Assembly: GCA_002633005.1 (NCBI GenBank)
Contig: NMRA01000397.1
Location: 333,176-397,175 of the forward strand
Origin: Phoronis australis
Taxonomy: Eukaryota > Animalia > Phoronida
DNA: 64,000 bases
Direction: 5' to 3'
The notes beneath the pieces were generated by a model, which saw only the letters and a program-made list of their open reading frames with translations, did no database searches and was not told the DNA's origin. Below, piece by piece: positions 5,778 to 32,449 of this stretch (the first letter of the stretch is position 1; the number at the start of each line of letters is the position of its first letter). The translations under genes and the position numbers were made by a program.

Positions 5778-7104
5778 TGAACGCAAACAAGAAAACATTA
5801 CTTTGATGATATTGTACGATTGGTGAAACTAATCCTTTTTTGAAAACAAAGAGTGCTTATTAAATGTTGACTGACATTTGTGAAAAATCAGCTTCATTCT
5901 TTACCGAAGTGGAGCACACGTTGATTCATCGCAGCATTTCATGAATGTATACATTACGATGCCAAGCGTACTTTATTTTTCAGAGACTAATTAACAGACA
6001 TGAAGAAGTAGTACATGTTAACTTAACTCAAACCACTCGTATTTTACACTCATACCCAAAACTGCCGACACCACGAAGAAAAACAATTCAATGTAATCAG
6101 CACTCTCACTGACAGAAATTCTGCCCATAAACCACCGAGCCACAGAGGATCACATGCTTAACGTAAGGTGATATGAATTTCAAACCAATTGTATTTCAGC
6201 ACATTGAAATCAAAATTTTACACTGTCTTTTCTTCTGTTTAGCTGTCAGAAAGGTAAAAACTCAACCACTTGTCTCTATAAAAACTGTCATTAAAATTTT
6301 CTTTACAGTGGCAGGACGTTATTTCTGTTGCCTGAGCATTAACAAGTAAACAGTTTTAAAAATTCATTTGGTTAGCCAGCCATTCCAAAATTTAAGCGCT
6401 TCAATTCGATCTCAGATTATTTAGGGATTCCAACAGAATGTCAAGAATACTTCTGAGTACAGTTTGACACGATTTTTATTTCACATCAAAGCAGTTAGTA
6501 TAGGGGAAAACTGAAGCTTCAACTTTAAGTACCTCCAGACTACAATAAGTAATCGGAAACTTTCTAAAGTTAATTAACTAAACTCTAATGTTCAGACGCT
6601 CCAAGTGTCAAACTGTGAATGGTTAACTTGCAAAATTGCCCCCGCGAGACTGCAGAGTAACAATGAAACAATTAAAGTAATTGAACAACATTAAGATAAA
6701 GCAAATACCACTACCCCAAAATTATTTTCGCACTTTTTCAGTCCACTAAACTCGTCATTACCCAGAACTACCAGGTATCCAATGTTGCAGACGTCATTGT
6801 TGCGATATAGGCATTGATTTATTGTCATAAAATGTCCCAAACTACCTAATAACCTTTTAACTACATAATAATAAAGCAAAAATGGTTCCCGGTGATCAGT
6901 GCAGTGGGAACACCTGAGCTGCGTGCTCACGTTGTACCATACTGCCTACAACTTTACTTTTCATAAACCATCTAATTCGCGCTACTAACTACGTCTCTGT
7001 ATCATTCGGAAATATCAGAATTTGCTTAGTAACCTCTGACAAAAAGTATTCATTTTTGAAAGAATTGCAGGCGTCGTACTACTACGTCTGTTACAACAAG
7101 GTAA

Positions 7105-7751
7105 CTAATGTAAATTTCCGACGATAGCAGTCGCTATTATCTTCTTTGGGTCTCTCATCATGGTGTAGTGATCTCCGTCCACCTCAACTACTCGAACCGG
7201 CTTGGAACACAACCTTTGGGAACCGTAGTCACGTCCATGGGCTTGTATTTCAGCTAGGGTCTCGGCCAGTGGACCGTCAGTTAAGAGTTCTGTGGCGCGA
7301 ACAAATGTTACGTTGTCATTGTAAATTGCTGAAGGACTGTACGAAGCATAGTTTTTCAGAGTTCCTCGGAAAGTCGAAAGTCCGGTCTTCAAATCTTCTT
7401 CGTTTAATCCTTTCTCTTTCCACGTGTCTTCAAACCACTGTTCAAAATTGGAAAGTTGTTCTTCAGAAGACCCTTGGATTTTTTTATAAGTGTTGGTGAC
7501 AAATTCCGGGGTTCCATCGAGAAGAACTAACGTTTCCGGTGTGCGGTTGACTTGCTCAAGCTTGATCGCCATTTCAAAGGCTATGACGCAGCCAGACGAA
7601 TAACCAACCAGTGTGTAGGGTGTAGACAAATTGAAAAAAGACAACTTTTTCATTCTATTCACATAGATATCGGCAAGCTGAGATACAGACTCGAAGGGCG
7701 TGGTACCTTCCAAGAAACGGAAAGCGTAAACTGGGTGCCTCTTTAGATGAC
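7105..7751 (-). CDS. Terminal NRPS exon: C-terminal part of the thioesterase domain
   Basis: After acceptor tttttttcttag it reads (G)HLKRHPVYAF...LVGYSSGCVIAFEMA...LLDG...VDGDHYTM; Ser/Asp/His triad motifs of a type I TE. Confidence 0.9.
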
Positions 7752-10700
7752 CTAAGAAAAAAATTATGGGATGTAAGAAAATGCACGTTTCCTGCACTTT
7801 GAATCTCAAAATACCTGCAGTATAACTTACCCTTTATTTTCACTTGATCACTGCTTGACGAAACACAAGCGTTACTGTGTGTTATTTCATTAGCCTTTCT
7901 AACTATTTTGTTTTATCAAAACATCATCATTATCACCAGAATTTGTTTTCGCCAAATGAACCGTTTTGATTACCTATAAGGATGTACACTATTATTTTGT
8001 AGAATATTCTGAGAAAAAACTTTTTAAAGCCGCTTCAAATCCTGCCATATGTAGTGATTACGTATGTGCATTCAAACTATCGATAAACCTGAGAGTAAAG
8101 GGACAGCTAAGTGAACCTTCTTAAAGCCACAATTAAACATACTTACCAGCGACATAGGCGTACGAAGATGTCCCACCATCACTAGCGTGAACACAGATGA
8201 CTGGCATCTTGTCTTCTTCGCCATCATTGAGACACACCAGCATATCACCATCGTCGTTTTTCAACTGCGCGACTGCAGCAATATCTACTAGTGTTTCGAA
8301 CTGCAGTACGTCACCTAAATTGAATATCAGCCCTCTCTTTTCACCGAGAGAAACAAGACTGATAGCCTTGATCGATGTTCCTCCAAGGTCAAAGAAAGAG
8401 TGGTCAAGTTTAATGTCGTCAACTTTCATTCCAAGAAGTGTGGCCCACATGTCCCGAAGAATAACCTCTTTGTCTGTTAGTTCTTCTTTTATTTTACTAT
8501 ATTCTTGCCAAGCGGGCTTATTCAATTTTGACGGTAGATTAGAAGCAGTTTGCAATATATCATTCATTACCTTTTTGTCACAAGCCTTGATCTCGTCTAC
8601 CGGCAAAACTATTGTGGAAGTATTGTCACATTGGCACATGGTCTTAATTTTCTCCAGGATGAAGGAATTGATGTTTAGACGAGGCGAAACAAAGACACAT
8701 CTCATTTTTTCATTTTGAGCAATGAAACATTCATTCAGTTCGTCAATATCTCTCAGCTCCTCTGGACATGTATCACATTCTTTATCTGCCATGATTATCG
8801 TTTCACCGCTTCTATTTGTCTGTGCAACAACGCCAGAGAAAAATTCGTTTTCATCACTTTGATGAATAAACAACTTTCCAGGGACGCCAATCGGGCATTC
8901 ACGTCCACGGTGGTCTTTGATGCGGTACACGTGTTCAAAAGTATCTTTATAGGAAGAGTTAGTGTCGATCGATTGGACAATATCGATATTAATGACTGAC
9001 CTCATGTTGTCAGAATGTAGTATTTCGTCCAATGCGTTGTCTAAATGAGTCAGTAGTTGAAGCGCAAAATCGTCACTTATTAAATTGGCGTCGTACATAC
9101 ACTTGGCCATGAGATTTTCACCGTCGTCGGCGAATAGAACTCCCAGTGGGAATTGAACCCTCTCATACCCTTGGATGTCCGTCATTTCAATTTCGGGGTC
9201 TGCAACATTTTCAAGCGTGGGGTAGTTTTCATAAGTAACCAGGGTATCGAACAGATTTTGATCTCTTGGAAGTCCACTCCACTTGCGTATATCGGCTAGA
9301 TTACTGTGATCGTAAGCCATTATGGCGGCTTGACGGGCTTGAATATCCGTTAGCCAATCAATTAACGTTACACTTTCATCAGATGGTATGGGAATTCGAA
9401 GAGGTAACGTGTTCAACAGTAAACCAACCATATCTTCAATACCCTCTACTTCAGCGCCACGGGATGCCATCACAACAGCAAAAACCACATCAGTACCAAA
9501 AGTGCTGCAGTAGCGATCCAAAATTAATGCCCAAGCACCGTACATAACTGACGTCGTAGTCAAAAAGTTTCGTCGTGCAAATTGCTTCAAATCTCCAATT
9601 TGGAGAGAGAAAGTACGCATAACATCCCTGTCGTCTTGTTGGTTAGAATTTTTAACGATCTTTAAGTTCTTTAAGGACAGAAATCGTTTTGGTTGAAGAT
9701 TGTCTAAATAATCAGACCAGAAATTTTGCGAAACTGACATGTCATGATTCTTACAGAAATCCACAAAAAGCCGAAAGCTCGGAGCAGGTGAAAGTTCTTT
9801 CGAATGGTAAACGCATAAAACGTCTCTTAAAACAAGCGGTCCTGACCAGCCGTCGAAAAGAGCGTGGTGAAACGTCCAAATAAACCTATAAATTTCTCGG
9901 TCAATCTTCATCAGGGCAAAGCGCATGAGATCACCATTCATATTAAAACCCTTCGCCCTATCAGCTTCCACAAATAGCATTTCCTGTTCGTGTGGGTGCT
10001 CCCAAACCCCAACTTCCCACTCTGGGTTTGCATTTCGTCGAACAACTTGTCGCAACGAGTGGTTCTCGGCATCAATTACGAAACTTGTTCGTAAAGCAGA
10101 GTGATGGTCTATAACTTTGCCCCATGCAGACTTAAATCTTTCAATGTCTAGTCTCCCGGAAATATGTAAACAGTACTGCACCAAATAAGAAGATTTGTCT
10201 CGAAGGAGCGAAAAAATAAAACCCTCCTGAAGAGGCGTACAAGAATAAATATCTTCAACATCTTTGACTTTGATGCTTGCTGCTTTCAATGTGGCGTCGA
10301 TCAAGGCGAAGTTTGAAGCAAGAGATAAATTATCAGAGCTTATTTGAGTACTATCTAGCTTTAAGCATTTGACGATGTTCTCTGTTGCCGTTTTCCACCC
10401 GTCGGCCAGTAACTTAATGGTTTCTCGTCGATGAAGAGCCTTGCTAAACAGAAACAAACCTTGCAAGCAACCATTAGAAATGTCGCACTCGATGGCTAAA
10501 TTATGCGAAATTCTTTCATCCTTGCACTGGTTGTTATAGTTGTAATCGCCATCCGCACATACTTCCCACAAGCTATTCTTGCTAGAGAACTGCGTAGCAC
10601 TGCCATGGTAATTAAAAACAACATCGCATTGTTGATTGAATCTTGGATCAGAGTCCTTCTTAAGAAACTTCATGACGCCATAAGGCATGCCTTTTTGAGG

Positions 10701-13700
10701 AATGTTTCTGAGGCGACGTTTTATTCCTTCTAGTTGCTTCAATGTATCGTGAGTTCTGCCATCAACCACCAAAGTAACGGGATACATCACAGTGAACCAA
10801 CCGACAGTTCGAGAAAAATCTAGTTTGTCAGTCCATGATTCTCTCCCGTGCCATTCCATTTCAACGGACAACGAAGATTCTCCCATGCACTCGTTGTATG
10901 CTGTAATGAGAGCAGTCAAAAGGACGTCACTTACCGATGTATGTTCGCTACTATGCGTTCCCTTGAGGCTGAGTAGCTGATTTGTTGTACTCTCGTCGAA
11001 GCAAATTTTTTCTAAAGTGCGAGTTTGACACGTAACTTGATCCCTATTATAATCCAAGAAATCAACCTTTAGAGGACTGCTCTTTTCTAATGCCGGCCAG
11101 TCCCTGGTTGAAACGGACAGAGCGTAGTCTGACTTTAAAAACTCCGACCATTCCTTAAAAGACGTTGTCTTTTGAGGAAGGACACCTCCACGGCACAATG
11201 TCTCCAAATCCTCCAGAATAATTTGCCACGAAACAAGATCCACAGCCATGTGATGTATGGTAATGAATATGTACTGGCAATTGCCTTCTATATCGAACAA
11301 TCCGACAGCCATAAGTGGGCCTGACTTCAGGTCGAGTGAGTTTTGAAGTTTAGTGATTTCCACAGCCACTTGATCTTCAAGTACGTCCTTGTGGATTAAC
11401 TTTGGAATCGGGGTTTTCGAGACGGGCTGGATTTCCTGGATCACTTTTCCATCATCACAAACAGTGAAAGAAGCTCGTAGAATATCATGATGGAGAACAA
11501 GAGATTTGATAGCATTTTGGAGGATATCTGGCTCAATCATAAGCAAAGGACGCAATAACAACGACTGATTAAAACAGTCACGATTACGCAACTTCAAGTG
11601 AAAAAACCATTCCTGCACAGGAGTGAGAGGCACGTTTCCAGATATTTCAATATTTTTGACCGTATTTGTTGGCATGTTAGAATGAACAAATTTTGCAACA
11701 GTTGCAAGTTGGGTCAAGTTTCTCGTCTGGAAGACATGTTGAACCGTGAAGCGCAAATTACGCTTTCTTCCAAGAGAAAATACTTTCATTGCTGAAATGG
11801 AATCTCCACCTAAGTAAAAGAAGGAGTCACTAGACTTAATTTTCGATGGATCTATTTGGAGGACTTCACTCCATATTTCAATCAGCAGTTCCTCCTTCTT
11901 GGTCAGTACTTCATGTTGAGTCAAATTTGGCGCCGGCAAACTTTTGTAGTCAATCTTCTCTGCCGTTGACATGGGGAATTCCGAGAGGGGAACAATCACG
12001 GACGGAACCATATATTTCGGAAGCTTATTTTCAAGTTTCTTTTTCAAATGAAATACACCAGCACCACCAATATCTGGTGTAACATAGCCTACAAGTACGC
12101 CATTATTCACTACTGCTGCAGCGTTCTTAATGCCGTCTTGCATTCTCATAGCGTGGTCAACTTCGTCTAGTTCTACACGGAATGCTCTTAGTTTTACCTG
12201 CCTATCTTTACGACCAAAGACTATGATTTCACCATCTGGAGTCCAACTTCCCCAGTCGCCTGTATTGTACAACCGCCCTTCACCAAAAGGATTTTTAATA
12301 AATTTTTGGTAAGTTAGATCTGGTCGTTTAAGGTAGCCTCTAGCAACACCATGTCCACCAAGAAACATAGTACCTTTTACCCCGATTGGAACCGGTTTTA
12401 AGTTGTCGTCTAGAATATGTACTTGGCAGTTAATGACTGGTTTTCCAACTGTCACTCTGGATTTTGTATTTGTTAAGCCTATAGTGCAAATAATTGTGAT
12501 TTCCGATGGACCATATTCGTTGTACAATTCTGCATGATTTTTCCATTTAGCTGCAACGGATTCCGAGAGTATTTCCCCGGCCACAGATATCTTTTTTAAA
12601 TTTGAGAAGTCGTCTGGGTCCAGTGAAGCTAAAACAGATGGTGTCATCATTGCAAAGTCCACCTTTTTTAAAGTGTTCACATAATTTAGTTCTCTCTGCA
12701 CAAGTGTCGCCCCGGTTGTTAATGCCATGAATACCTCTTGATACGCAGCGTCAAACATTATGTTGAAGAAATGAGTAATCCTCATTCCACGTCTGATGTC
12801 ATGCGCTTTGCAAGTTTGTGGAATTAAACATTCGCAACCCCAGTGATTCACCATCACTCCTTTCGGCTTTCCAGTCGTTCCCGACGTGTAGACAATCCAT
12901 GCCAGATGTTCACTTTCTGCAATGTTCTTCAAGTTCTGATACTCAGACTGGTCAAATTGATCGTCAGAAAACCTTGCAGTATACTTTTCTACGTCAAGCA
13001 CAATGATTTCACCGTTGAAATTTTTCAAAATGCCAGTTGCTTGGATTTTTGCAGTAGTTACTACAATTTTACATTCAGCATCATCAAGCATAAAGTGAAT
13101 GCGATCTTGAGGAAGTGTCGCTTCTATGCAAACAAATGCGGCTCCAGACTTCAAAATACCAATTTTGGAGGCTATAAATTCTAAATTACGTTCACCAATT
13201 AGACCAACTGCTGAGTCTGGAACTGCACCAAGCACTTTAAGTTTCCGTGCTAAGCTATTACTTGCCGCGTTTAGTCTCCTGTAGGTAATTTGCCTTTCCA
13301 TTTCTTCTACAGCGATTAAATCTGGCGTCAGCTCTACTTGTTGCTCAAACTGCTGATGTATGCGTAATTTAGAATAGTCTCCAGTTTTGTTGAATGTCAT
13401 AATGAGCTCCGTTTGAGAGGGAGGAAGAAGATCAAGTTGGCACATGGGAGTTTCCATGTTTGTGGTAAGTAATTCAAACAAGTACACTAGGTGTTGACTC
13501 ATTCTTTCAATTGTGGTACGACTGAATATGTCTGTGTTGAAAACGAAGTGTCCACTCAATTTTCCACTACTTTGCCGCAAAAATTCTAGATTCAAGTCGA
13601 ATTTTGCTGTAAACTGTTCGAAGACTTGTGCTTCCATGGAAAGACCATCAGCAAATTGTCTGCTTGGAAGATCTTCTTGTAGAACAGTAGCAGCTTGAAT

Positions 13701-16700
13701 AATAGGGTGGTATGAAGTGTCTCTTGGAACATTTAACGATTCTAAAATCTTTTGAAAAGGAACATCTTGATTCTCCAATACCCCTAGCATCAAATCTTTT
13801 ACTTTCGTTAACATCGAGTGGAACGAAGCTTTCCTTTCAAACTGCACTCGGAGAGGGAGTGTGTTCACAAAATAGCCTACTATATTTTCTGTGCCAGCAT
13901 TATGCCTACCAGAGAAGAATGCTCCGATAACAACATCATCAGACTGTGAATAAATGCGCATCAACAATGAGAACATGGTGGCTAAAGCGGAAAATAGGGT
14001 TCCACCGCATTCTAAAGCACACGCCACCAACTTTTGAGTGACACGATCTGGTATGTCTATGAAAACAGTCGCACCTTGATAGCTAGGAATTGCAGGCCGC
14101 GGGCGATCAAGTGGCAAATCCAGCACGTTGCTGACGTTTTGAAGTTGTTGCTTCCAAAAGCCAAGTTGTCTCTCCATTTCTTTGCAATCCAACATTTTCC
14201 TCTCCCAGTTGCTGTAGTCAATATAGTTTAACTTCTGCGGAGACAGTTTGAGCTGAGTGTTATTCAAGCGTGAGGAATAACATTCGCTTAACTGGTCAAC
14301 AATTATTTTCACAGAAGCTCCATCTGTTACAGAGTGGTGCATAAACATACCCAACTGGTGGTCCGAATCAGACAGCTTCACAAGAGCAAACCGCAAAAGA
14401 GGACAAGAATATAAATTAAATGGTAATGAAGCTTTTAGATACAAATACTCTTTTGCTTTGCGTTTACTTTCGTGTTGTCCGATGAAGTCTTGGAAATCAA
14501 ACTCAAGCGAGCAATCATTTGCTGGCTTAACTATTTGAAAGAATTCGTTATCCTCAGATCTTTTAAAGTATGTGCGAAAAGCTTGGTTCATAGTTGATAC
14601 ATCATTCAAAGATTCCTTCAATATGTCGACGTGCAAGGCGCCATGGAAGTTTAGGATGACCACTACATTGTATACAGGACTATGAGGTATTAGTTCATAC
14701 AGTAAACACATTTGGTCTTGCCTGTATGATGCTTTAGCTGTTATTACGCTGTTGTCATCGAACGGACACGTTTTGGGAATAAATGTGTGTACCTTTGAAC
14801 GAACTTGCGGAACCAGTATTCTATGGCACATTTCTGCTGAAAGTTCTGCAGGTGTAGATAAGCTCATTATATCTGCCATGCTTACTTCCACGCCGGAGGT
14901 TTCTGCTAGTAAGGATTTTAAGCTGATGGCTAGAAGTGAGTGCCCTCCGAGGTCAAAAAAGTCATCTTCCATGTTGAATCCTGGATCCACAACTTTCCTG
15001 AAAGCATCGAGTACGATGGATTCTAGGTAATTCGAAGGTTGTTTTCCTTTATAATGTGTAGTTTTAGGCTTAAACTTTGGTAGGGCTCTTTGATCAATTT
15101 TCCTATTGGCTGTCAAAGGAAACCGTTCCAGACAGAACACAGTAGTAGGCACCATAAAGCTAGGTAATTGCCTCTTTAAGCGAGATATTACATCGGATGA
15201 TGTGATGTTCGTACTTGTGAGAACGTATGCCACAATGTACTGACCATCTTGAACTGTTACGTGAACCTGGTTAATACCTGGTTGTTGCTCAATAGCAGTT
15301 CTGACCTCATCGAGCTCCACACGTTTACCTCTTAGTTTTATTTGATCATCCATTCTGCCAAGCACTTCGATTTCTCCATTTTCCAGCCACCTGGCTAGGT
15401 CACCGGTTTTGTACATTCGTCCAGCACCAAACGGGTTTTCAATGAAGGCCTTTTCTGTTAAATCTGGTCTATTGTGATATCCTTTACCAACATTAACACC
15501 GGCTATGAACAGTTCTGCGGTTACGTTTACAGGAACTGGGTGGAGATTTGAATCTAGAATAAAACTCTTTGTATTTGGTAACGGCTTTCCAACTGTCACT
15601 CTTTTGTNCAAAAAAGTCATCTTCCATGTTGAATCCTGGATCCACAACTTTCCGGAAAGCATCGAGTACGATGGATTCTAGGTAATTCGAAGGTTGTTTT
15701 CCTTTGTAATGTGTAGTTTTAGGCTCAAACTTTGGTAGGGCTCTTTGATCAATTTTCCTATTGGCTGTCAAAGGAAACCGTTCCAGACAGAACACAGTAG
15801 TAGGCACCATAAAGCTAGGCAATTGCCTCTTTAAGCGAGATATTACATCGGATGATGTGATGTTCGTATTCGTGAGAACGTATGCCACAATGTACTGACC
15901 ATCTTGAACTGTTACGTGAACCTGATTAATACCTGGTTGTTGCTCAATAGCAGTTCTGACCTCATCGAGCTCCACACGTTTACCTCTTAGTTTTATTTGA
16001 TCATCCATTCTGCCAAGCACTTCGATTTCCCCATTTTCCAGCCACCTGGCTAGGTCACCGGTTTTGTACATTCGTCCAGCACCAAACGGGTTTTCAATGA
16101 AGGCCTTTTCTGTTAAATCTGGTCTATTGTGATATCCTTTACCAACATTAACACCGGCTATGAACAGTTCTGCGGTTACGTTTACAGGAACTGGGCGGAG
16201 ATTTGAATCTAGAATAAAACTCTTTGTATTTGGTAACGGCTTTCCAACTGTCACTCTTTTGTTTGGCAGTAACCTGCCCGTGTGCGATATTACACTGCAT
16301 TCTGTTGGACCATATCCATTTAAAAGGATTCTGTCTTTACCCCATGCCTTCACCATTGCTTGGGAACAAGCTTCCCCTGCCGCTAGGACAACTTTGAGGT
16401 TAGAGTAATCGTTAGGATTGAGAATATTCAAAGTCGACGGTGTGTTACCAACAGCATCTACTTGTTTCATTGTTGTTGTAAAATCACCAGACGGGAAGAC
16501 AAGGCATCCACCATGACATAGGGTGGTGAAAACTTCACCTACAGTTCCATCGAACCCAACAGCAAAATACTGCATCACTTTTGTCTCCGGCGTTATGTTG
16601 AAAATTCCCCCAGGTTTATACATTATGAAATTGATGAGCCCACGATGTTCAACCATGGCACCTTTTGGAAGGCCTGTTGTACCCGAAGTGTAAATCATAT

Positions 16701-19700
16701 AAGCAAGATCACCAGATTCATTCACAATATCTGGATTGGGTCTGCCTTGCTTCACGTGAGCAATCAAATCTGCACTCCTTAAACTTACATACTTGATGTC
16801 GTTGGGCAAAGTTTGCGTATTAAAAGAAGATGCGTTGATGGCAAAACGACAACTACAGTCTTCTAGTAAAAATGCAATACGATCAGGTGGCTGAGAGGCA
16901 TCAATTGACACAAATGCCCCCCCTGCTTTCCAGATGCCTAACATTCCAGCAGCTAAAGTCATCTCGCGGTCTAATATCAGTGCCACCTTTTCTTCGCGCT
17001 TGAGCCCAAGGTTTCGCAGTTGATATGCAATGCTATTTGCAGCTGCATTTAGTTCGTTATACGTAATAGACGCATTTTCTTTCACCAATGCCAGTTGACC
17101 TGCATTTGACAAAGAGCTTACAGTATTTTCGAACAAGTGGTGAACGCCTTTGATATGCCCTAACCGTTTTTGATATTCATCAGAAGGGTTAAACTTTTCC
17201 AGGGTAAGGTGTTCTTGGGGGCTAACTATGTCAAATTCGCTAAGCAGCGTCTCTTTTGAGGAAGACGCAATCCATGCCATGGCTCTCTCAAAATGACGGA
17301 GTGCATTTTTTAGCCCAGTTCCGTCAATAATGCTTGTATCAAAGATGGCTTTGATTTTAATAACATTTCCATTATTAAGGATATCTAGTGTAAGTGGATA
17401 TTCTGTAAATTCGTGATCATAGACATCACTAACTCGAAATTGCGAAGATGTCAGCGCAGATGTCTTTTCTCTGTTAATTGTGTTATATGACATTACTGTT
17501 TCAAAAAGTTTGTGATCCGCGCTTAGCCCACACCATTTCATAATATCAGTCATAAACGATTTTTCGTGAGCAAGAATTGTAGTTAGCTTCTCCTGTATGT
17601 ATTTCAGCCATTCAAAAACGTGGTGATCATGAATCTTCACCCTCATCGGTAATGTGTTTATAGTAACACCCATAAGTCTGTTTACGTCTTCAATATGAGA
17701 TGTTCCTCGACCAGAAACAACGAATCCAAAAAGAACATCGTTCGGATCACATGAGTATTTGTTAACCACAATAGCCCAAGACGCGCACAGAATCGACACT
17801 ACGGAAATATCATGGCCTTCGGCATATTCGTGCAGCTGGTGCATTGTTGCATTTGTTATTGTGAAGTGAATCACTGCGTTACCCTTTCTTGGACTTTCTG
17901 GAGGCAAAAAGCGAAGATTGCCGAGTTGGGGCAATTTATGCATTTCTTCAGTCCAGAAACCTTCGGCCTTATAGCTACGCTGCTTGAAGTCAACCACTTC
18001 TTCAACATATTCTCTAAATTGTGGGGACTTGAGCAACACACCATCGTTGTAAGCTAGCAAGACTTCTTGAAGAACATTGAAGCATGTTAGGCCATCTACA
18101 ATACTATGGTGTGAGGTCATAATTAAACGATGCTTACTTTTTGAATGCTTAAAAAGCGCAAATCTTAACATTGGCTCCGAGAAATCAAACCCGGAATGGC
18201 GATCATAATGAAGGAACTGACTTTCTTTTTCAACTTGCTGCGCACCTGTGAGATCTGATAAATCCTCCACTATCCACTGGGGTTCGAATGTCTTGCGCAC
18301 AATTTGCATGCATCCGTTTAATCTGTCAATGATAAAGCGCGTTCGAAGAATATCATGTCGTAAAATTACTTTCGATATACTACGTTGGAGTTTGTCGTCG
18401 TCAAGATATCCGTCGATTGTACAGGACCGTTGTATCAGGTAAGCAGAAGAATCTTGTAGAAGACTAAACAGAAACCCTTCTTGCACAGGGGTACATGGGT
18501 ACATGTCAGAAACATGCTCAGCTTGGAGGTCTATCTGAGCAAGACGTGTTGACAACACGTCATCAAGGTGATTTTGTGACAGCTTCAACAATGGAAAATC
18601 AGACGGCGTATATCCAAAAACGTCTCCTTTTGTACAATGCAGCACCAGATTTGATAAGTTTGCTTTCCATCTAGCTATCCACGACTCAATAGTACTTTGC
18701 CTGTGGATATCTGTAGAGAAGAACATCTTCATGCGCAGTTTCTCATCCTTTAGAAAGCATTCCACAACAATTTTGTGCGTTAGGTTTTCATTTATATCGA
18801 ACTCATCTTCTCCGCAAGGATAATCGTCAGCAATGTCCCAAAAGGCGCTTTTTGTCTGAATCTGATCAAATCGACCGTAATAGTTAAACAAGACATCAGA
18901 CTTTGGGACTATGGGCTCTTGTGAAGTCTTTATGAGCTTCAAAAGCCAAAATGGCATTCCACGTTTCGGAATGCTTCTTATGTTTTCTTTGGTGTACTTC
19001 AACGTTCTTTCCATTGTTATTTCTGTCGAAGACCCTCTGCAAACTTCCAATTGTAGAGGGAACATTGTCATAAACCAACCAACAGTACGAGAAATGTCAA
19101 TGGAGTCATCCCATGGCTCACGTCCGTGAGCTTCAACGTCAACTTGCAGCTGTTTCTTTCCCATTGTTTCGTTATATGCTAAAATCAGAGATGCTAACAG
19201 AAAATCGGTCGTGTTTGTTCTAAAGGCATCGTTGGCCGCTGAAATCAAATCCGTTGTAATTTTTTCACCCATTTCTTCAACGACAACTCGCCTAGACCTT
19301 GCTGTCGGAGAAATAATATCTGCAAAATCTGTAATCAGTGGAATCGTTTCTTTAGGACTGGGCCAAACGTTGTCTGAAAGTTTTTGGTTTTGGGCGTATT
19401 CTCGTAAAATCAATGACCAATTTTGAAAAGACATGCTTACACTCTCTGTGTCTTGTCCATTGTACAATCGCTCCAAGTCTTCCAAGATAATTCGCCATGA
19501 AACGAGATCAACGACTAAATGGTGGACAGTGATGAAAATCCTTTGCGTGGCACCGATACTAAAAAGGCCGACAGCAAGGAGAGGTCCAGTCAATATGTTA
19601 AGGGAGTATTTCAAAATACTAATCTCTGTGTCAAGCACGTCGCTAGAATCGAGATTTTTGGCAACAAAGGAGGTACAGTGAGACTCGTTTATCCTTTGCG

Positions 19701-22443
19701 TCCATGAACCGTCTTCATTTTCAGAATATGTGCATCGCAACATTTCGTGATTGGAAATTAACTGAGATAATGCCTTCCTAAGTTGCTGTTCATCAACTAT
19801 TGTCTTTGGTTTAAGAAGAAAAGACTGGTTCCAGAAATTTGGAGTCTTAAATCTCTGCTCGAAAAACCAAATTTGCGCGGGAGTGAGTTGAACAAAAGGA
19901 GATGCGGCCAATCTTTCTTTGTCTTTGATTCGATTGCAGAAGCGAAGAGGCTTGGCAGTCATTGCGAGCTGCCCTAGAGAAGGATGTCCCAACACTTGCT
20001 GAACAGAGAGGAGCAGATTTTTTTTCCGAGCGGCAGAAACAACAGTCATGGCAGAAATAGAATCACCACCGACTTCAAAAAAAGATGAGTCGGGAGAAAT
20101 TTTCTCAACTGGTACTTTAAACATTTCACTCCATATATTAGCTAGGACTAATTCTCTTGGTGTGAAGTGAGTGTGTGTTGAGGATAATTCTTTTGAAGTT
20201 TGAATATTTAGATTTTGTTTTTCTAATGTACTTCGTGAATCAATTGTAGGAAGCGACTTGCGGTCAACTTTTCCGTTTGCTGTAACTGGAAATGAATCCA
20301 TCACAATGATAAATGCTGGAATCATGTACGATGGCAAAACAGTGCCAATTTGTGCTTGCAAATCAGAGACATCTAGTTGTGCATTTTGCTCGTGAATGAC
20401 ATATGCAACGAGTTTTTCCTGAACTTTCAAGACTAACGCGTCCAAAACGCCTTCCTGGCTCACTAGCGTTGATTCAATTTCCGATAACTCAACGCGGAAA
20501 CCACGGATCTTAACTTGATTGTCAATGCGCCCACAGAATTCTATGTAACCTTCAGGATGAAATCTTCCAAGATCACCAGTCTTGTATATTCTTTCTCCTT
20601 TGATGAAGGGACTTGGCAAGAAACGAAACTTAGTTACCTGGGGATTGTTCACGTAACCCATGGCAACGCCCATTCCACCAATATACAATTCACCTATAAC
20701 CTGCATCGGTACAGGATTCAAAAACTCATCCAAGACATAATACTTCTGATTGGTAAGCGGCATACCATAAGGTATGCTTGTCCAAAGTGGGTTGATATCT
20801 TTTATTGGGTAATAAATCGACCAGATGGAACCTTCTGTAGCACCACCCTGACTCATTACTTGAATTCCAGGAACCATGGTTCTCAGTTGCGAGGGAAGAG
20901 CCAGTGGGATTCTGTCACCACTCAGGATGACAAGACGTAGAGTTGAAGGCAGCATGTCTCCTTCAGAGTAAAGGTATTCCATGAGGAGACTAAGAACAGC
21001 TGGTGCTGAGTCCCACATCGTCACATTATGGTTCTTCATTGTGGTAACCCAGCAAGCAGGATCTGGGATGCCGCGTACTTCGGGAACTGGAATGACAACC
21101 GTGCCACCTGTAGCAAGCATGCCAAAGATGTCGTACACAGAAAGGTCAAAACTGAGTGAAGCAACCAAGAGGATTTTGTCCCTGGCCGTCACAGAATACC
21201 TCTCGTTTATGTCCAGTATTGTGTTTACTGCATTTCTATGACTAGTCATGACGCCTTTTGGTCGACCAGTTGAGCCAGACGTATAGATTATATAAGCAAG
21301 GTCATCAGGTTTCACTTCAGGTGTGTCGTAGTCAAACGCGTCACCTCTCTCGGACAGTACATCATCCAAACACAATACACTATTGCAATATTTCTTCAAA
21401 ATGACAACCATGGAGGTCTTTGCCAGAATGAGAGATGCTTCTGAGTTTTCAATCATGTAGCTCAATCTTTCCTCTGGATAGCTCGGGTCGAGTGGAAGGT
21501 ATGCAAACCCAGCTTTCATGATAGCATACAGACCAATCACCATTTCTAATGATGCGTCGACGCTTACTCCAATCACGCGACTCGAGTAGTCATTTCCCAT
21601 GACAGACAATATTTTCTTGGACAACATAGTTGATCTGTATTCTAACTCTTTGTATGTCAAACTCTGGTCAGCGCATGCTACTGCAACAGAATTAGGATCG
21701 TGGCGGGCTTTCTCTTCAAAAAGCTCGTGCATCAAACATTCACTTCTTTTATAGTTCTCGGTGGTGTTGTTGAACTGAAGGAGTGTTTGCTGTTCACTGC
21801 ATGTGAGCATGGGGACACTCAGAAAGTTTGGATTGCTGTTCTGAAGATCAGGGATTTGCAACAACAGCAGAAGAAAGTGGTCTCGGAACTGCTCTAGCAA
21901 ATCATCGCGGCATCGGTGGTCATACCGAAGTGTGCATGCGCAGTCACAAGGAGATCCAAGAGCCATGGCAAGTGTTATGGCGTATTTTGAAAGAATGTTG
22001 ATCTTATTGATTTCTCGTGGCAAGTTGAACGCCACGAACGCATTACGGCTGTTACGACTGTACTTTGCATGAGCTATAGGGGACTTGTCCAGTTCCAATC
22101 TCAAAGATTTGAGAAGATCCGGTAATTGACCGTTGACCCCACAAGGCAAGAAGACAGGAGAATACCCTTCGACTTCGCTGGCATCTCTTCCATTGTCGAT
22201 AGCTTCTGGGTCATGTGTGTCAGCCTCAGCAAATGCTAATTCAATTGATGGCGATTTCTCTGCACCCTCGTAGCGGATAAGCACAGCGTAGACTAAACAC
22301 AACAAAGCGTCTATCGTACTATAGCCTAGAGGCGAAGCAATGTTTGCTAGAATTGTACAAACTTCTCTTCCGACGTTGAAGGATAACTTTTTGTGGTATT
22401 CTTCTTCAACATCTTTCGGCCTGTTGTTTCCTTCTTTTGACAT
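7105..22443 (-). CDS. Multimodular non-ribosomal peptide synthetase, C*-A-T-E-C-A-T-C-A-T-E-C-A*-T-TE (~4762 aa after removing the duplicated overlap and the intron)
   Basis: Three A-domain P-loops (YIIYTSGSTGRPKG, YMIYTSGTTGLPKG, WIVYTSGTTGKPKG). Four carrier motifs (GGDS, GGHS, GGDS, GGTS). Two E domains (HHLVVDLVSW/EAHGRE/RTVGWF and HHMAVDLVSW/EWHGRE/RTVGWF). Three C domains (HHSIVDG, HHSVTDG, HHALFDGWS). TE with GYSSG and GDH. join(22443-15609, 14953-8147, 7751-7105) = 14289 nt, in frame. ATG 22443 follows an acceptor tttcag, so an upstream exon is likely. Confidence 0.93.
7752..8146 (-). other. Spliceosomal phase-1 intron (395 bp) within the NRPS TE domain
   Basis: Donor GCTG|GTAAGT at 8146 and acceptor ttttttcttAG|GT at 7752. 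Splicing gives in-frame ..SSYAYVA-G-HLKRHPVY.., uniting the two halves of the TE. Confidence 0.9.
14954..16262. repeat. 654-bp direct duplication either side of a single N (unmerged contig overlap or two haplotypes)
   Basis: 14954-15607 and 15609-16262 are near-identical (about nine substitutions seen) and abut the N at 15608. Collapsing them restores one ORF. Confidence 0.9.
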
Positions 22444-23324
22444 ACCTGAAATGACAGTAATATTCCAAGCAACAACAAACAATGGTCTTGCAACAATGTA
22501 CTCGTGTAGGACGTGCATGCAAACATATGTGAACAAAAAGAAAATGACAGTTTATTATATCGAATCAATATACGATTACTTGGTGAAATGGACTTTCTCC
22601 TCGTATGTTGCCGTGTCGTGAAGTTATATAAACTTTTTGTATACTCGCAATAGGTCGTTTTTTCGTCCTATCGACATGAAATCCACGTTAAAATCTCGAG
22701 GTCAATTTTTGGGGGGACAAAATCGGTCCAAGAGACGGCGCTGTGACGGTCATTTTTAAAGAAATCAACTTACCAAGGTTTAGCTCTGTGGTTCTAATCC
22801 ACAAGTCTGTATTTACACAAATATACATTTTTACTCATCAAAATTATATATTTTCTAAAATTATAAGGCGCGTAGAATTTGATGCTTGACCTGATACCAA
22901 TCTTGAAATAACTGAGTTATATGACCATGTATTTTTAGTAAAATTTAGCTAGAACGAAAGGAGCATTCATAGCAAAAACAACTGGTCGAATTTTGTTTAA
23001 TACAAATGCTCTCAAATACAATGTTACGATTTTGTAAATCATCTTTTCGTTTTCGTTTTCGTTTCATAGATCTTTTCGTTTTTTCATAGAAATCTCGAAA
23101 AAACAATTGTTGTTAATCTCTCATTTAAATGTGGAAAAGTTTAAAAATAGTTCTCTTAAGAACAAGTTAAAACTTGTTTTAATTTGTTAATAATCTCTTA
23201 TGCTAAAGTGGAACAGTTTAAAGATAGCTCTTAACTGCGTTTTGGAGAACAGATTCATGTTAAATGTTATGTAGGACATGTCAATAAAAACAATGCCGAG
23301 CTTAAACTGGCTTGTATGTTTCGG

Positions 23325-23462
23325 CAATGACGTCATTGGATGATTTCAATACTTCCGTCTGCCGTCAGGTGTCAGGTATTGCAACCGAACGTGCCGTTAT
23401 CGAGTAGAACTACTCGATCTAAATTGATACAAAATGGGTTGTTTTTTGGGTGGCATTCTCCT
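23325..23462 (+). mobile_element. Second copy of the Kolobok-like right end
   Basis: gacgtcattgg..ccgtctgcc.tcaggtgtcaggta..atctaaattgatacaaaat..gggtggcattctcct|ttaa matches ~5655-5777, and its last 15 bp are the perfect inverse of 3875-3889. Confidence 0.7.
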
Positions 23463-26400
23463 TTAAGAACGTCTTAGAGTATTTATTAAGCGTATAAATT
23501 AATTGTTACAACATTCATTTATATTCAATGGCGTAATCCTAACAACAACAGCGCAAACCAATCGGTTACAGGTATTATCGTTATATTTAGTTTTCCTACC
23601 ATTTCATCGTGCAATAAGATCTCCTTTATTTCCGCAAGAGGCTGTCGTGAACATTTCTGTGTAAAAATACAAGCTTGTGCAACGGTGTTGCCGACAAATC
23701 CCGTCTTCGTCCTCTTTCATGGAATTTTAAGGCACAAGAAATATCTTTTGCAAGGGTATGGACAAAAGATTAACTTCTTTTCTTTACTGTGGTCGTTCAC
23801 CACTGCACGCCGTATTTGGATGACCAATCGGCGAAATCTTCACGAACACTAAACGTCGTGGCTACTTTTGAGTGGCTGATACTTGGAACTTCACTTTTAA
23901 AGTTATGTAGGACATTATCGACAAGTTGTGTATTTAGCCAACTGTCTACATTACTTTACCCCCATGCTTCAATGTATAATGTCGTAAGGTGAGAATTTTC
24001 GAAACAAAGATCTGGACCAGTGTTTGGATGGCGTAATAGGGCATTTATCTCCGTCCCCAGCCTTTGGTTGAGGGCGCCCCCCGTTTTTGCTCCTGCCTCA
24101 TCTTCAGCAGATCTATCTTATGTTGATCAATTCCCTGACCTCCTCGTATTTCTCGTAATTTATATTACATTTGCTGCCCAAATTTTTTCTTGATTTACTC
24201 TATATTTTGCTTATATGTATTTCTCCATTACACTGCTCATATTTTTTTGTTCTCAATATTTTAAACAAAGACACTTCACAAGTTTGAAATTGACAAAATA
24301 ATATCAGCATGGTAGTCGACGTCTCGCGTACTTCGTCGGCGCACACATGCCCCGTGGGTGTCGCCTCGACCCAAATAATGGTGGCGGAGAAAGTGAATAG
24401 TCTTTTTAACGTCTATGTATTTAGCTCATCGCTTGCGACAGTCGTATAATTCTAACGAAGAACACTTTATATTAACCTTAAACCCTTCACACCATGGTCA
24501 TAAATGGTTGAATTCGGTTTCCAATAAGTTTAATACTATAGTTTAAATATTTCCTCTTCAATTTGTGTTCTTTTAATCAAAAAATAAACGCAAAAATTAA
24601 AATTCATTTGTGTCGTCATCAGAGCAAGTCCGGTCTCGACCATAGTGCTGATGTACACCAGCCGCGAGCCGGAGTGGTCTCGAAAACTAATTTTGGTTGA
24701 GTAATATGGAACGTTGTTTGTGCGGAAGATGTAGTAATAGCAAACAGACAGGCAATATTTCAGCTTTTTCGATTTCGAAATACCCCTGGCACAGGTTCAT
24801 GCGTCAGACACGGGTATAGCAGTACACAAGGTTTTGTTGGGAATGCATGCTGTCCACATACATCAATGCCCAATAGTAGAAAATGGAATGTAGGTGCCAG
24901 GCAAATAGTTTGAGGTCACGACCCCAGCCGGTTCAGATCGAGGCAGGAGTCGCACACAGAACCGATATCATCGCCAAATCATAACGATACAAAGCTTTCG
25001 TAAATCTGGATCAGACAAGACAGAAACGAAAGTCATTTACCAGAATTAAAGTGTAGTTTGCACCAATATTCGAAGAAATGACATCGGCGACTGATATTCG
25101 CGACTGGGCTCTGACAGTCACGATAAAAACTTCGCTTAGACAGTTCGAGACATGTATAACTCGACACTAAAGTGATTAGAAAACTAAAGTAATGGCCACT
25201 CTGAAATCAAGAATGTCCGCAGACTAAGTAGTGTCCGACTCGACTTTACTCGACGAAAACGCTGGTGCAGGAGGGTCGAGTTTTTACGGCCTGAAACACG
25301 CAAAGTATGCCGATGTAGCGAGGTCTATCTCATTATTTGTTTCACTTATAACCCGAGTGTCGTGTCCACCCAAATCTCTATACCAGTTTTCATATTAATC
25401 GTCAAGTTCGCTCTCTAAGTCTTCTTAACTTACGAAATCCATGCGCGCACCCAGCCTAAAATATAGGGGGTTCGAATTTTTCGGTATGCGGACCTTTTAC
25501 TGAAAAAATAACGAGGACTAAAATAAAAAAAACGGAGCCACTAGGTTCGAGCCCCCCGAGCCCACCATGGGTGCAACCATGAAATCACTACTATTCGCCG
25601 TTACATATATACTGTCAACTGAGGAACGTGTTCCACTGATACCATCACGTTGCGAGAAAACAAAAAATCGTGAATATTTCTTTGAAATTCAAAATTCCCC
25701 AATTATTTCTTAAAACAAGGGAATGTTTAGTTATGTTTTATGTAATGAAATTTTTAAATACCGTCTACTACCTCAAAAAGTGCAAAAATCCATTGCAGGA
25801 ACGTTTTAAGTTGCGGCTCGCTATTTCACTCAAATGACTATCATTCCATTAACAAGAAATTGCATTAGGCGATGTTGTTGGTAAATAATCGTGTTAGAAC
25901 AGTTTTAACGCTCTGTGATGGCTGAGTATGGATGAATAATATTCTTACAAGTGAGATATAACTATATTACATGAACAGTTTCCGAACATACGCCCCCCCC
26001 CACCAGTCAGGAAACACGTCAGGGCATATATTCGGTTTCATTTGACGTTTTTAAAGGTCGTTTTCCTAGCAACTGCCCATGGACAATTTTTTTTTCAAAA
26101 TTCCTGGTACTGACTGCCAAACTCCCGTGAGTTGAAGTATCGTAAATTAAGAACGCGTACGCAGACCACGGCTGAATTGAGTGTTGGAGCATTAAGAACG
26201 TGTATGCAGACCCCAGCTGAACTGACTGTTGGAACATGACACGGTTGCACACGTTGAAATTTTTATCCGCCTTGCATTTACGTAAATTAGTTCATTAAAT
26301 AACTAAAGACGACGCTATCATAACATACATTTCTATTAATGAAAATGCTCAAAACATCAACCATATTAATATAAAGATTAGTACGGAACGTCAGCGCAGT

Positions 26401-29400
26401 GAGTTCTCCATCATCGATAATGCAAACAATTTAGGGAGAATAATAGTGCGTGAAATATAATGATTACTAATGATCAGTGGAAACGGGGAGAAAATTGAGT
26501 GCACACAGTCATGTGACATTTATTTCAAAATTTCCCCACGTTTCGAGCGATGCGCTTTTTGTCAAGGGTGTGCTACAGACTGCTGAGTACAAGTAGAAGT
26601 TTTTACTAGTTTTACTATTTTATACTTTTATTGGTCGGTAACTGCACGGCATTCCAATATCTATTTGATATTGACATTTATTTCGATAATGATTTTCAGC
26701 ACTTCGATAAAGTTGACTATGAAACTCGAACAACGAGACTTTGATGTTTTGCAAATTCCCTAATGATTTGTAGTTGTCTAATGTATATTCGTTATAGTAA
26801 CAAGCGCCTTTTTCATTATCATCAGCAGCATATGTATTTTCTCAAATGACCTGGAATGTGTTATAACACGACTAGTTAATAACACCGAGTATGTAATTTT
26901 TGATATTACATGGGCAACTCACAAAGTAGTGCAAGGTAGGCATCCATGCGTCTTACATTTTATCGTCTACAAAACACTAAAACAACCAAACGTTCGCCAA
27001 ACAAGCAATACCGGAATTCCAAGAAAACGACGAGGTTATTATGATTGACAAATCGGGTGTGGAAACTTTACGTACCCCCAGTTGGAAGGACATGCAAACA
27101 ACTTTTTAAACAGACCCTTCTTCGGCGGCGAATTCCATCCTCGTTCATTCAAACGGAGACGAGTTCTAACTCAAGAAACGCGGCGAGACTGTCTAGCTGA
27201 GCTTCTCAAGGTCAATTTAGTGCACACGCGCGAGGAAGCCTCGAGATTTTGACGAAATTTCCAAGAGGTTTTGCCCGTGTCATAAACCTGAGACTCGTGT
27301 AGGATTCTCAATGTAATAACAATCAGTATTTAGATAAAACTGGGCTTACTTGACACTTCAGAATGAAAAAACAATTTTAATTGTTTATATTTAATTTGTT
27401 AAAACAAATCAAATATAAACATAACTACGTCTATGCTCGTATGCTAACTGAACAAATTTGGCAAATTTTTCTAGGAAAATATTCAAATCATTTTAATCAT
27501 TTTACTGTGGGTTCATATGAAACGTTAGGTACTTGGATAGTTATATTAGAAATACCATGAAGTGCACTGCAAAAGGTGAGCAGATTTTTAAATCTAAAAG
27601 AAATAATTTCTCACTGCAGTTTGGTCTTAGCCTGAGAAATAAATTTCATGAAATACGGATAAGTTGTACAAGAGATAAACAAGTTTAATACAATATGTAC
27701 AATATGCTCCGTACACTATAACTAACCTGAGCGCAAACGAAGACTCGTTTAAAACTGCAAACTGCACTTACCGAAGTGTTCACGTAATGTGAATTAGATG
27801 TTAAGAGTTCTGTTGCATAGGAAATCTTTGAAAGACAACAGCGAAATACAAAGGAAATTTGATTCTGAAAACCGGAATTTCTGGTTCCACAGTTTGATCC
27901 TGATCGATCTCAACGGCTCAGAATCACTTCCTTATAATGATCACCTAACCTCGGCTTGTATTTATTGCGTGCCGCCATACCCTCACCTTCTATGATGTGG
28001 GCCGCATCTCAAGTCTTTTTATCACGTGACCGTATCTCGGGGGGCTTCATTTTTCTTATTTGGCTAGTATTTGAATTGCATATTTTTTGTAAAAACAGAT
28101 TTTTATTTACCAAAAGGTGTCGCTGTGTGCTGCCTCACAATTTGACAAGGTTTAAAAAGGCCATATTCATTAACATACTGAAAAATGCTGTAATCAATTA
28201 TATCTATCTGAAACAAATAATTCAAAATATAAAAAATAATCCTAGTCTTGCTCAAATGAAATTAAGGCTTTCACTTTCATAAAATCAATTTGATAACATC
28301 TTTCTCACCGCGTACATGCATCGTTTTCAAATTCGCACTTTTGGGGTTGACCAACTCCACTAAAGTATGTTTTCTTCAGTCGATGATGGTTTCGATGTTC
28401 TCGATGCAAAATGGAAATGAAACCCTATCACGACAATCAAAGTAAATGCCTCATTCGACTTCCATGTTTTTTAACCATTTAGACATTGCGAAATGCAAAT
28501 TTTGAGTGTGTGCGTGAGGGCGGGCGCGTGTGTGTTGAACATCCTACTCATTGCTACACTCTTTCGTTATTAGTACGGCAATAAAGCCGCCTTCTGTCAC
28601 AAAACAGTTTTTGATTTAGATCAATAACTGTTCTGAAATTGGTATCAGATGTTTTCTCAGTCGACACAGGTTTCTCATCTTCCTTTGGAAAGAAGAGGCA
28701 GGCCAATTTTGCTTGAGACTAGGCTCTACAAAATGACTTGTNCACGTCCTGGCGCTTTATTCTCCGACTGAGAAATAACTTAGTTATTTACAAGACCAAA
28801 AATAAAATCTCTCTGAGAAAGAAACAAGCTGAAAATTTAAAGAGGTTAGTCGTCAAAATTGACACAGGTTTATTGCCTCTTCGGTAGTATCACTCGTTTT
28901 ATTTGATCATATGCAACTCAGTAGCGCATCGTTGAGGTGTAATCAGTTTACTATTATACCCTTCGCACTAGGAAACAACTTGACAATTTGCCTATGCGTC
29001 TTCTGCAGCAGGTACCACCATAGTCATCATCATTTTCTTCAACTCAAAATTGCCGGTGCCGCTCTCTAACGCCTTCTTATTATTTATTCTTCCTCTTAAC
29101 GCTTACACACTTCTTCTCTAATTTGATTCTCTTATCAGACGAAGCAGGTGCGAAGACGTATGAATATCTTTTAACGACAGATAAGGTAGAACCGAAACAT
29201 AACATTTAAGGTTTAAAAAATACATCTGATTACCTTATCAGGTAAAGCAGCTGCTTTGTCACAGTGACCTCTTTAAGGACAATCATTCTGGGGTTTACTC
29301 CCGAATAACGTATGTTGAGGACTATTTAATTGGATGTGATAGAGTTCCTGAACTTATTAGCTTAGTACAGAATTATAAAACTATAAAATCCGATGTTTTT

Positions 29401-32150: not shown

Positions 32151-32449
32151 CCTGAAAAAAACTTTCTATGAAAAATATTTTGATTGGTGTTGATATTTTG
32201 CATTGAAATGGATAATAATCAGAATATTGCAGGCTCTACCGGGTAGGTCAATAAGGATACCAGTGCCGAGTTTGTTTACGCAACTGGTAACTCGACTCAG
32301 GGTGATGACACCAAATACATCCTTAATTCTTAAATTTTGAGGATTGACGAAAGTCACAAGATACGGAGAATTATTTGTGTGTTTGCTATCAAATACACTT
32401 CGTTTACAACGCGTTGAGTTATAGCAGCATGTTGTTTATTCAATATACT

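What the first reader, a model, noticed from the sequence alone, without database searches (positions are those of the whole stretch)
8270..10255. Fourth module has C and T domains but only a vestige of an A domain
After C4 (HHALFDGWS, intact) only ~170 aa precede T4. They contain DHRGRECPIGVPGKLFI, a relic of the A6 motif (PxGxPGEL), with no P-loop or substrate pocket. T4 keeps its Ser (GGTS). Inference: T4 is loaded by another A domain (iteratively or in trans), or C4 condenses the D-ended tripeptide with a free amine, or C4-T4-TE serves transfer or cyclisation. This non-collinear end determines the product.
Basis: partly seen in the sequence, partly recalled or inferred. Interest (0 to 1): 0.7.

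Follow-up and report, generated by a model that had tools for sequence, protein, structure and literature searches.

The report
Animal peptide synthetase, collapsed last module
This expressed, intron-containing gene, likely from an invertebrate, encodes a four-module peptide assembly line whose last module has lost the part that picks an amino acid, so another module likely loads it, a known trick in microbes seen here in an unstudied animal-type enzyme.

Summary
Confirmed. The finding is the end of one spliced, transcribed NRPS gene of about 4,760 aa: A-T-E-C-A-T-C-A-T-E-C-[A relic]-T-TE. It lies among animal-type genes, and an assembly duplication at N15608 splits it into two ORFs. About 177 aa separate C4 from T4, with no P-loop or substrate pocket. 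The A6 relic beats all shuffles. The rest looks like a decayed Asub, on weak evidence (negative in 34, 57). A spliced contig and RNA reads from another study carry the same short linker, so it is not misassembly. C4, the T4 serine and the TE triad are intact. C4 variants are mostly silent (11 of 17). C4 groups with C2 and T4 with T3/T1, which suggests internal duplication followed by loss of the A core. Most likely T4 is loaded by another A domain, probably A3, giving a D-L-D-L tetrapeptide (inferred). A-less modules are known (SyrE, mannopeptimycin NRPS, SidC, Sib1). Three of 240 retrieved proteins carry the same A6-to-Asub relic. No orthologue was found. Verdict: new variant of a known kind.

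The parts
27772..27921 (-). First exon (5' untranslated; may start further upstream)
   Evidence: Contig record 9 of run X3, bases 1-153, lies here and continues at 22442; GT donor at 27771
22446..27771 (-). Intron 1 (about 5.3 kb, GT..AG, repeat-rich)
21750..22443 (-). Start ATG (22443) and about 230 aa N-terminal region, likely a decayed C-domain C-lobe
   Evidence: No Pfam hit; custom C-lobe HMM E 0.003, best of 500 shuffles
18646..21813 (-). Module 1: A1 (21813-20197), T1 (GGDS 20070), E1 (HHLVVD 19524)
14823..18465 (-). Module 2: C2 (DCL clade, HHSIVDG 18111), A2, T2 (GGHS 14948); contains the assembly duplication
14955..16260 (.). Assembly artefact: the same 651 bp written twice around N15608 (9 differences), splitting one gene into two ORFs
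   Evidence: one 11,779-nt contig lays its bases 6341-6986 on both copies
10371..14714 (-). Module 3: C3 (LCL clade, HHSVTDG 14339), A3 (13415-11907), T3 (GGDS 11810), E3 (HHMAVD 11255)
9015..10259 (-). C4, DCL-clade condensation domain with intact HHALFDG (9869-9849)
   Evidence: Pfam E 7.5e-59; nearest solved structures McyB, PvdL, BacC, TycB, SrfA-C; tree
8487..9011 (-). Collapsed A4, about 177 aa: remains of the C-A linker, A6 relic (8921-8865), then putative decayed A7/A8/Asub; A1-A5 (P-loop, pocket) absent
   Evidence: A6. Remainder weak; not significant
8260..8486 (-). T4 carrier domain, GGTS serine codon 8375-8373
   Evidence: Pfam E 1.8e-12; model pLDDT 76-92 over the domain, matches PCP structures at about 1 A rmsd
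7752..8146 (-). Intron 2 (395 nt, GT..AG) inside the TE
   Evidence: Joint seen in 4 of 4 runs laid; frame stays open
7105..7751 (-). TE exon with GYSSG (7605), LLDG (7524), GDHY (7176) and stop; the TE begins at about 8220-8147 in the previous exon
   Evidence: Pfam thioesterase E 6.6e-18

Best explanation
The last module of this spliced, transcribed four-module NRPS has intact C, T and TE motifs but only a relic of its A domain, and T4 is likely loaded with an amino acid by another A domain, most likely A3 of the same enzyme. Shown: architecture, loss of the A core, intact motifs, splicing, transcription. Inferred history: module 4 arose by internal duplication of an A-T-E-C unit and then lost the catalytic core of A, keeping the A6-to-Asub tail as a spacer. 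Inferred chemistry: A1-T1-E1 gives D-X1, module 2 adds L-X2, module 3 adds and epimerises X3, C4 joins this D-ended tripeptide to an L-aminoacyl-T4, and the TE releases or cyclises a D-L-D-L tetrapeptide. If A3 is the loader, residues 3 and 4 are the D and L forms of one amino acid. Split of the 0.6: about 0.42 an A domain of the same protein, about 0.18 a separate A or A-T protein.
For: C4 has HHxxxDG and sits in the clade of C domains that follow E domains. It is sister to C2 (support 0.886), with a shorter branch than C2 (0.79 vs 1.24). The T4 serine and the TE Ser/Asp/His motifs are present. 11 of 17 listed C4 differences between individuals are silent, against 22-28% expected (p 2e-4 to 2e-3). 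Stranded RNA reads of two 2026 runs cover the linker with no joint, indel or loose end, and a spliced contig runs gap-free from 9952 through T4 into the TE. E1/E3 are sisters (0.999). T4 groups with T3 and T1 (0.915) and scores best against T3 among 341 carriers. Precedents: SidC A3 loads T4 and T5 of A-less downstream modules (PMC10192304, section read). In the mannopeptimycin NRPS one A serves two T domains, and SyrE ends in C-T-TE loaded from SyrB1 (PMC8949500, passages and section). No further A domain lies in the window.
Against: No biochemistry and no known product. No orthologue was found, so long-term conservation is untested. The genome is not held, so a trans-acting A elsewhere cannot be excluded or found. 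Expression is low: 166 and 103 reads, and run X8 has almost no reads on modules 1-2. The silent-site excess rests on a listed subset of differences (40 of 91 rows shown) and also appears in modules 1-2 (22 of 38), so it is gene-wide. Sister groupings of long branches may be attraction artefacts. Beyond A6 the Asub reading fails HMM, PSSM and hhalign tests.
Confidence: 0.6

Rival explanations
1. C4-T4-TE adds no fourth amino acid: C4 joins the D-ended tripeptide to a free amine, or the unit only hands the tripeptide to the TE for release, cyclisation or dimerisation.
For: No A core in module 4. GGTS is rare in complete modules (1 of 194 rows) and also occurs in TE-adjacent carriers of the A-less proteins P0152, P0042 and P0188. 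Fungal terminal CT domains (TqaA) are among the solved relatives.
Against: C4 is far closer to DCL domains (E 1e-63 to 1e-45) than to TqaA CT (E 1e-15). Amine-releasing C domains are normally terminal and need no downstream T-TE (recalled, not from a call), yet both are intact here.
Confidence: 0.22
2. Module 4 is a decaying leftover: it is skipped, or the enzyme no longer makes a product.
For: The relic is far diverged, with no hit among 1.84 billion representatives. Expression is low. Folding gave no confident model of the linker (pLDDT under 50).
Against: No stop or frameshift in about 14 kb of coding sequence, and no indel in the reads over 6700-15600. C4 has the shorter branch of the two DCL domains. 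Silent changes dominate in C4 and TE (15 of 23). A relic this diverged beside an intact C4 and T4 implies an old loss with the flanking domains kept.
Confidence: 0.14
3. The missing A core is an assembly error or one haplotype's recent deletion.
For: The same gene does carry an assembly error at N15608. Read depth over the linker is only about 1-7, so a rare full-length allele would be missed.
Against: Contig X3 record 3 spans 8145-9952 with 0 gaps, and reads of a separate study show the same junction. The retained tail is heavily diverged from A1-A3, which a recent deletion would not produce.
Confidence: 0.04

Closest known systems
Fungal SidC ferricrocin synthetase (PMC10192304, abstract and one section read) and S. 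pombe Sib1 with a degenerate A domain (PMC2644324, passages)
   Same: Eukaryotic multimodular NRPS whose late modules lack a working A. SidC A3 was shown to load the downstream T4 and T5; Sib1's first A is proposed to stand in for the degenerate one.
   Different: Those end in T-C units without E or TE and make siderophores. Sib1's dA is described as missing motifs, not as an A6-to-Asub fragment. Here there are two E domains and a TE.
Syringomycin SyrE C-T-TE end with SyrB1/SyrC (PMC8949500, section 4.1 read)
   Same: Terminal A-less module followed by a TE; the last residue is supplied from outside the module.
   Different: It needs a stand-alone A-T and a shuttle protein in the cluster; none is in this window and the genome could not be searched. 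Whether SyrE keeps an A relic was not checked.
Mannopeptimycin NRPS C-A-T-E-C-A-T-C-T-E (PMC8949500, passage)
   Same: One A domain feeds two successive carriers, giving D and L forms of one residue, as predicted here for A3.
   Different: Bacterial; the order of E differs and the passage shows no TE and no A relic.
C. elegans NRPS-1, nemamides (PMC8363725, results, discussion and passages; figures not seen)
   Same: Animal NRPS with fewer named A domains (A2, A3) than residues added (four), ending in PCP-TE, and making D-residues.
   Different: Mutant numbering (C3 H1486, C4 S1934, A3 G2337, TE S2803) implies that its A-less module is internal, not terminal (my inference). It has no identified E domains and is primed by a polyketide.
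ACV synthetase of springtails and Plectus (PMC10531068, one part and passages)
   Same: Animal NRPS with three A domains, E and TE.
   Different: ACVS ends A-T-E-TE with one E (order recalled). This gene has a second E in module 1, an extra C-relic-T unit, and different pocket residues.
Uncharacterised proteins P0152, P0042, P0207
   Same: C domain, then a jump from the C-A linker to just before A6, keeping A6-A7-(Asub), then T; P0152 and P0042 end in T(GGTS)-TE. P0152 aligns over 96% of C4-T4 at 25% identity.
   Different: Bacterial-type (one is named as such by its source). Their C domains fall elsewhere in the tree and their relics do not match this one specifically (z 0.1-0.9), so they are likely independent losses.

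Membership tests
Functional NRPS adenylation domain (module 4) | A3 P-loop, A4 Asp pocket, A5 YGPTE | tested here: not met
   Absent from the linker
A-domain-derived relic | A6 motif at the expected place, above chance | tested here: met
   E 2e-4, best of 2,000 shuffles; hhalign 39.9 vs max 20.0 of 60
A-domain-derived relic | A7-A10 / Asub homology after A6 | tested here: inconclusive
   For: ESM Atlas 22 of 30 hits in clusters carrying AMP-binding_C, score 0.93 but only about 90 of 256 shared features; z=3.0 vs own A3 tail, 8 of 1,000 shuffles, uncorrected. Against: PSSM 14 of 200 shuffles; hhalign 41 of 60; model pLDDT under 50
DCL condensation domain (C4) | HHxxxDG, follows an E domain, falls in the DCL clade | tested here: met
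Fungal terminal CT cyclising domain | Last domain of the protein; closest to TqaA-type CT | tested here: not met
   Followed by T-TE; TqaA E 1e-15 vs DCL 1e-63
Peptidyl carrier protein (T4) | Four-helix fold with GGxS serine | tested here: met
Type I thioesterase | GxSxG serine with Asp and His, in frame after splicing | tested here: met
   (motifs only; activity not tested)
Non-linear (type C) NRPS with inter-module loading (SidC / mannopeptimycin type) | More carriers than working A domains | tested here: met
   4 T, 3 A
Non-linear (type C) NRPS with inter-module loading (SidC / mannopeptimycin type) | An A of another module aminoacylates the A-less carrier | not testable with these tools
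   Needs in vitro loading
Split module with trans A-T (SyrE/SyrB1 type) | Stand-alone A-T and shuttle protein encoded separately | tested here: inconclusive
   None in the 64-kb window; genome not held
ACV synthetase | Three modules ending in E-TE, single E | tested here: not met
   Two E domains and a C-relic-T unit between E3 and TE
Host-encoded animal NRPS (not contamination) | Spliceosomal introns, transcription, animal-type neighbours | tested here: met
   Two GT..AG introns and stranded RNA; LRR/TIR and Helitron neighbours. 'Animal' is an inference from these; the taxon was not determined.

The most novel reading that the evidence does not exclude
The A6-to-Asub relic is not debris but a recurrent, independently evolved module type: deleting the catalytic core of A while keeping its C-terminal part leaves an adaptor that positions T for loading by a foreign A domain. 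This animal uses it to make a D,L-alternating, probably cyclic, tetrapeptide of its own.
Probability: 0.2. Interest if true: 0.7.

Novelty: new variant of a known kind. Interest (0 to 1): 0.42.

Why it matters
Few animal NRPSs have a known product, and this one is spliced, transcribed, apparently under purifying selection and has two epimerase domains, so it predicts an animal-made peptide with D-residues. How T4 is loaded sets the length and sequence of that product. The same deletion boundaries in three unrelated bacterial-type modules hint that the A tail has a structural job, which would matter for NRPS engineering. The A-less module as such is not new.

Tried and rejected
Orthologue searches gave nothing: linker region among proteins of 4,401-5,000 aa, 0 of 55 candidates; 243-aa linker against 1.84 billion representatives, 0 hits at E<=0.001; C4-T4 at near and longer lengths gave only distant hits of about 35% identity or less, those with names being microbial (120 of 2,757 and 120 of 204 hits listed); metagenome contigs gave 1 locus at 29%. 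The genome is not held. No RNA holder was listed by index; raw reads were laid instead. Folding the linker failed alone (pLDDT 36) and with a 4-row alignment (linker under 50); the fold search matched only T4. A 53-row global alignment put the linker against the A N-terminus and was not used. Gene neighbourhoods of the bacterial-type relic modules were not obtained: 0 of 74 stretches confirmed, and the 40 of 1,633 plasmid rows shown were all multi-piece matches of 3.6 kb or more, as for complete modules. Pocket residues read by motif (A1 DLYDISQIWK with position 278 corrected by hand, A2 DGGGLAGVIK, A3 DAQMSAEIIK) differ from each other; A1 resembles a cysteine-type code from memory, and no substrate is assigned. 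My recollection that nemamide NRPS-1 ends in C-T-TE was rejected on reading. Earlier findings: none. Searches for an A6-to-Asub relic in print (listings only) showed none, but the library lacks most subscription papers.

Full report
The gene. Two long minus-strand ORFs (22536-15493 and 15662-8133) and a short one (7809-7105) carry NRPS domains. They are one gene. The 651 bp on either side of the N at 15608 are the same sequence with 9 differences, and one 11,779-nt contig of run X3 lays its bases 6341-6986 on both copies, so the transcript has it once. The same contig skips a 5.3-kb GT..AG intron before the start ATG at 22443. A 395-nt intron inside the TE is skipped in 4 of 4 runs laid, and the frame stays open. 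X3 is labelled 'DNA?' but its contigs are spliced, so it is likely RNA. The protein is about 4,760 aa: decayed C-lobe, A1-T1-E1, C2-A2-T2, C3-A3-T3-E3, C4-relic-T4, TE. LRR/TIR and Helitron neighbours and the introns point to an animal host; the taxon was not determined.

The observation. C4 (HHALFDG, 9869) ends near 9015 and T4 begins near 8486. The linker has no Pfam match at E<=10 and no P-loop. The 19 aa at 8921-8865 match an A-domain profile at its A6 position (E 2e-4), above all 2,000 shuffles. hhalign agrees (score 39.9, maximum 20.0 in 60 shuffles). The C-motif-to-T-motif distance is 491 aa, between the bare C-T rows (334-361 aa, 12 of 210 rows) and complete modules (839 aa in module 3).

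What the rest of the linker is. Aligned with the gene's own A tails, it reads collinearly through A7, A8 and Asub, with the A7 aspartate and the A8 GRxD lost (motif names recalled). The statistics are mixed. For: the post-A6 part scores z=3.0 against A3's tail (8 of 1,000 shuffles, uncorrected; mean z 0.76 over 142 bacterial tails). The ESM Atlas returns 22 of 30 hits in clusters carrying AMP-binding_C, at 0.93 but with few shared features (whole linker similar; one source of evidence). Against: a PSSM test (14 of 200 shuffles) and hhalign (41 of 60) find nothing, and AlphaFold gives no confident model. I read it as a likely decayed Asub, not a shown one.

Real and maintained. One spliced contig runs without gaps from 9952 through T4 into the TE. 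Stranded reads of two runs from a separate study cover the linker with no joint, indel or loose end, at a depth of only about 1-7. A third run of that study has almost no reads on modules 1-2. Of the differences listed (40 of 91 rows shown; I classed the 31 in coding sequence), 11 of 17 in C4 and 4 of 6 in the TE are silent, against 22-28% expected. Modules 1-2 give 22 of 38. None of X3's 14 differences in 8145-9952 falls in T4 or the relic, but shared haplotype could explain that.

Origin. In a 90-domain FastTree (90 of 462 domains), C4 is sister to C2 in the DCL clade (0.886), with the shorter branch, and E1 and E3 are sisters (0.999). T4 groups with the E-preceding carriers T3 and T1 (0.915), and A2 with A3 (0.951). 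T4's best match among 341 carriers is T3 (133 against 122 for the best outside carrier). This fits internal duplication followed by loss of the A core; long-branch attraction and composition bias were not excluded. Three of 240 retrieved proteins (P0152, P0042, P0207) show the same jump from the C-A linker to just before A6, on unrelated C domains. Their neighbourhoods could not be fetched.

Mechanism. A DCL domain, a carrier serine and a TE triad are what a working final elongation needs, so T4 most likely receives an amino acid from another A domain (0.6). A3, one module upstream, is the best candidate by analogy to SidC, where A3 loads T4 and T5 and the C domain aids loading (PMC10192304), and to the mannopeptimycin NRPS (PMC8949500). 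Trans supply as in SyrE/SyrB1 remains open: no other A domain lies in the window and the genome is not held. The predicted product is a D-L-D-L tetrapeptide; substrates are unassigned. Transfer or free-amine release (0.22), decay (0.14) and artefact (0.04) are the rivals. The C-Acore pair is described as a platform for the mobile Asub and T (PMC10510592, passages), which is why a kept A tail could act as a spacer; that is my inference.

Known and new. A-less and degenerate-A modules are established in bacteria and fungi (PMC8949500; PMC2644324; PMC7539972, passages). In nematode NRPS-1 two named A domains serve four residues (PMC8363725; figures not seen). Animal NRPS loci, including several in marine invertebrates, were catalogued as antiSMASH regions (PMC10531068, and supplement rows), so this locus may already be listed there. 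The parts I read give no domain-level account of such a gene. Searches for an A6-to-Asub relic and for animal multimodular NRPS showed no description, on listings only and in an open-access library. No orthologue was found.

Verdict: real, likely functional, a new variant of a known kind; interest 0.42.

Noticed in passing
window 14955-16260: A 651-bp haplotype duplication around N15608 splits the NRPS into two ORFs; an annotation pipeline would call two genes or a frameshift.
   Followed up: yes
window 7105-27921 (-): The whole gene: about 14.3 kb coding sequence almost all in one exon, two introns, two epimerase domains. A bacterial-style NRPS in an animal-type genome; donor not identified.
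   Followed up: partly
window 21750-22443 (-): About 230 aa before A1 look like a decayed C-domain C-lobe (custom HMM E 0.003).
   Followed up: partly
window 20197-21813 (-): A1 groups apart from A2 and A3, and its pocket residues resemble cysteine-type A domains (recalled code); possibly a separate origin.
   Followed up: partly
P0152, P0042, P0207: Bacterial-type proteins with C-[A6-to-Asub relic]-T modules; P0042 has two A-less modules in a row before a TE.
   Followed up: partly
window 32449-34738 (-): LRR and TIR exons of a Toll-like receptor-type gene.
   Followed up: no
window 43763-49381 (+): Fragmented Helitron with Rep, PIF1 helicase and endonuclease pieces.
   Followed up: no
window 50730-52346 (+): Looks like a Pao/BEL-type retrotransposon fragment (recalled motifs; no matching Pfam hit).
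   Followed up: no
window 2603-3673 (+): 356-aa open frame with no Pfam family, lying downstream of the NRPS on the opposite strand.
   Followed up: no
window 18687-19358: A cluster of many differences between the window and the X3 contig in E1: a more divergent allele block or an exchanged segment.
   Followed up: no
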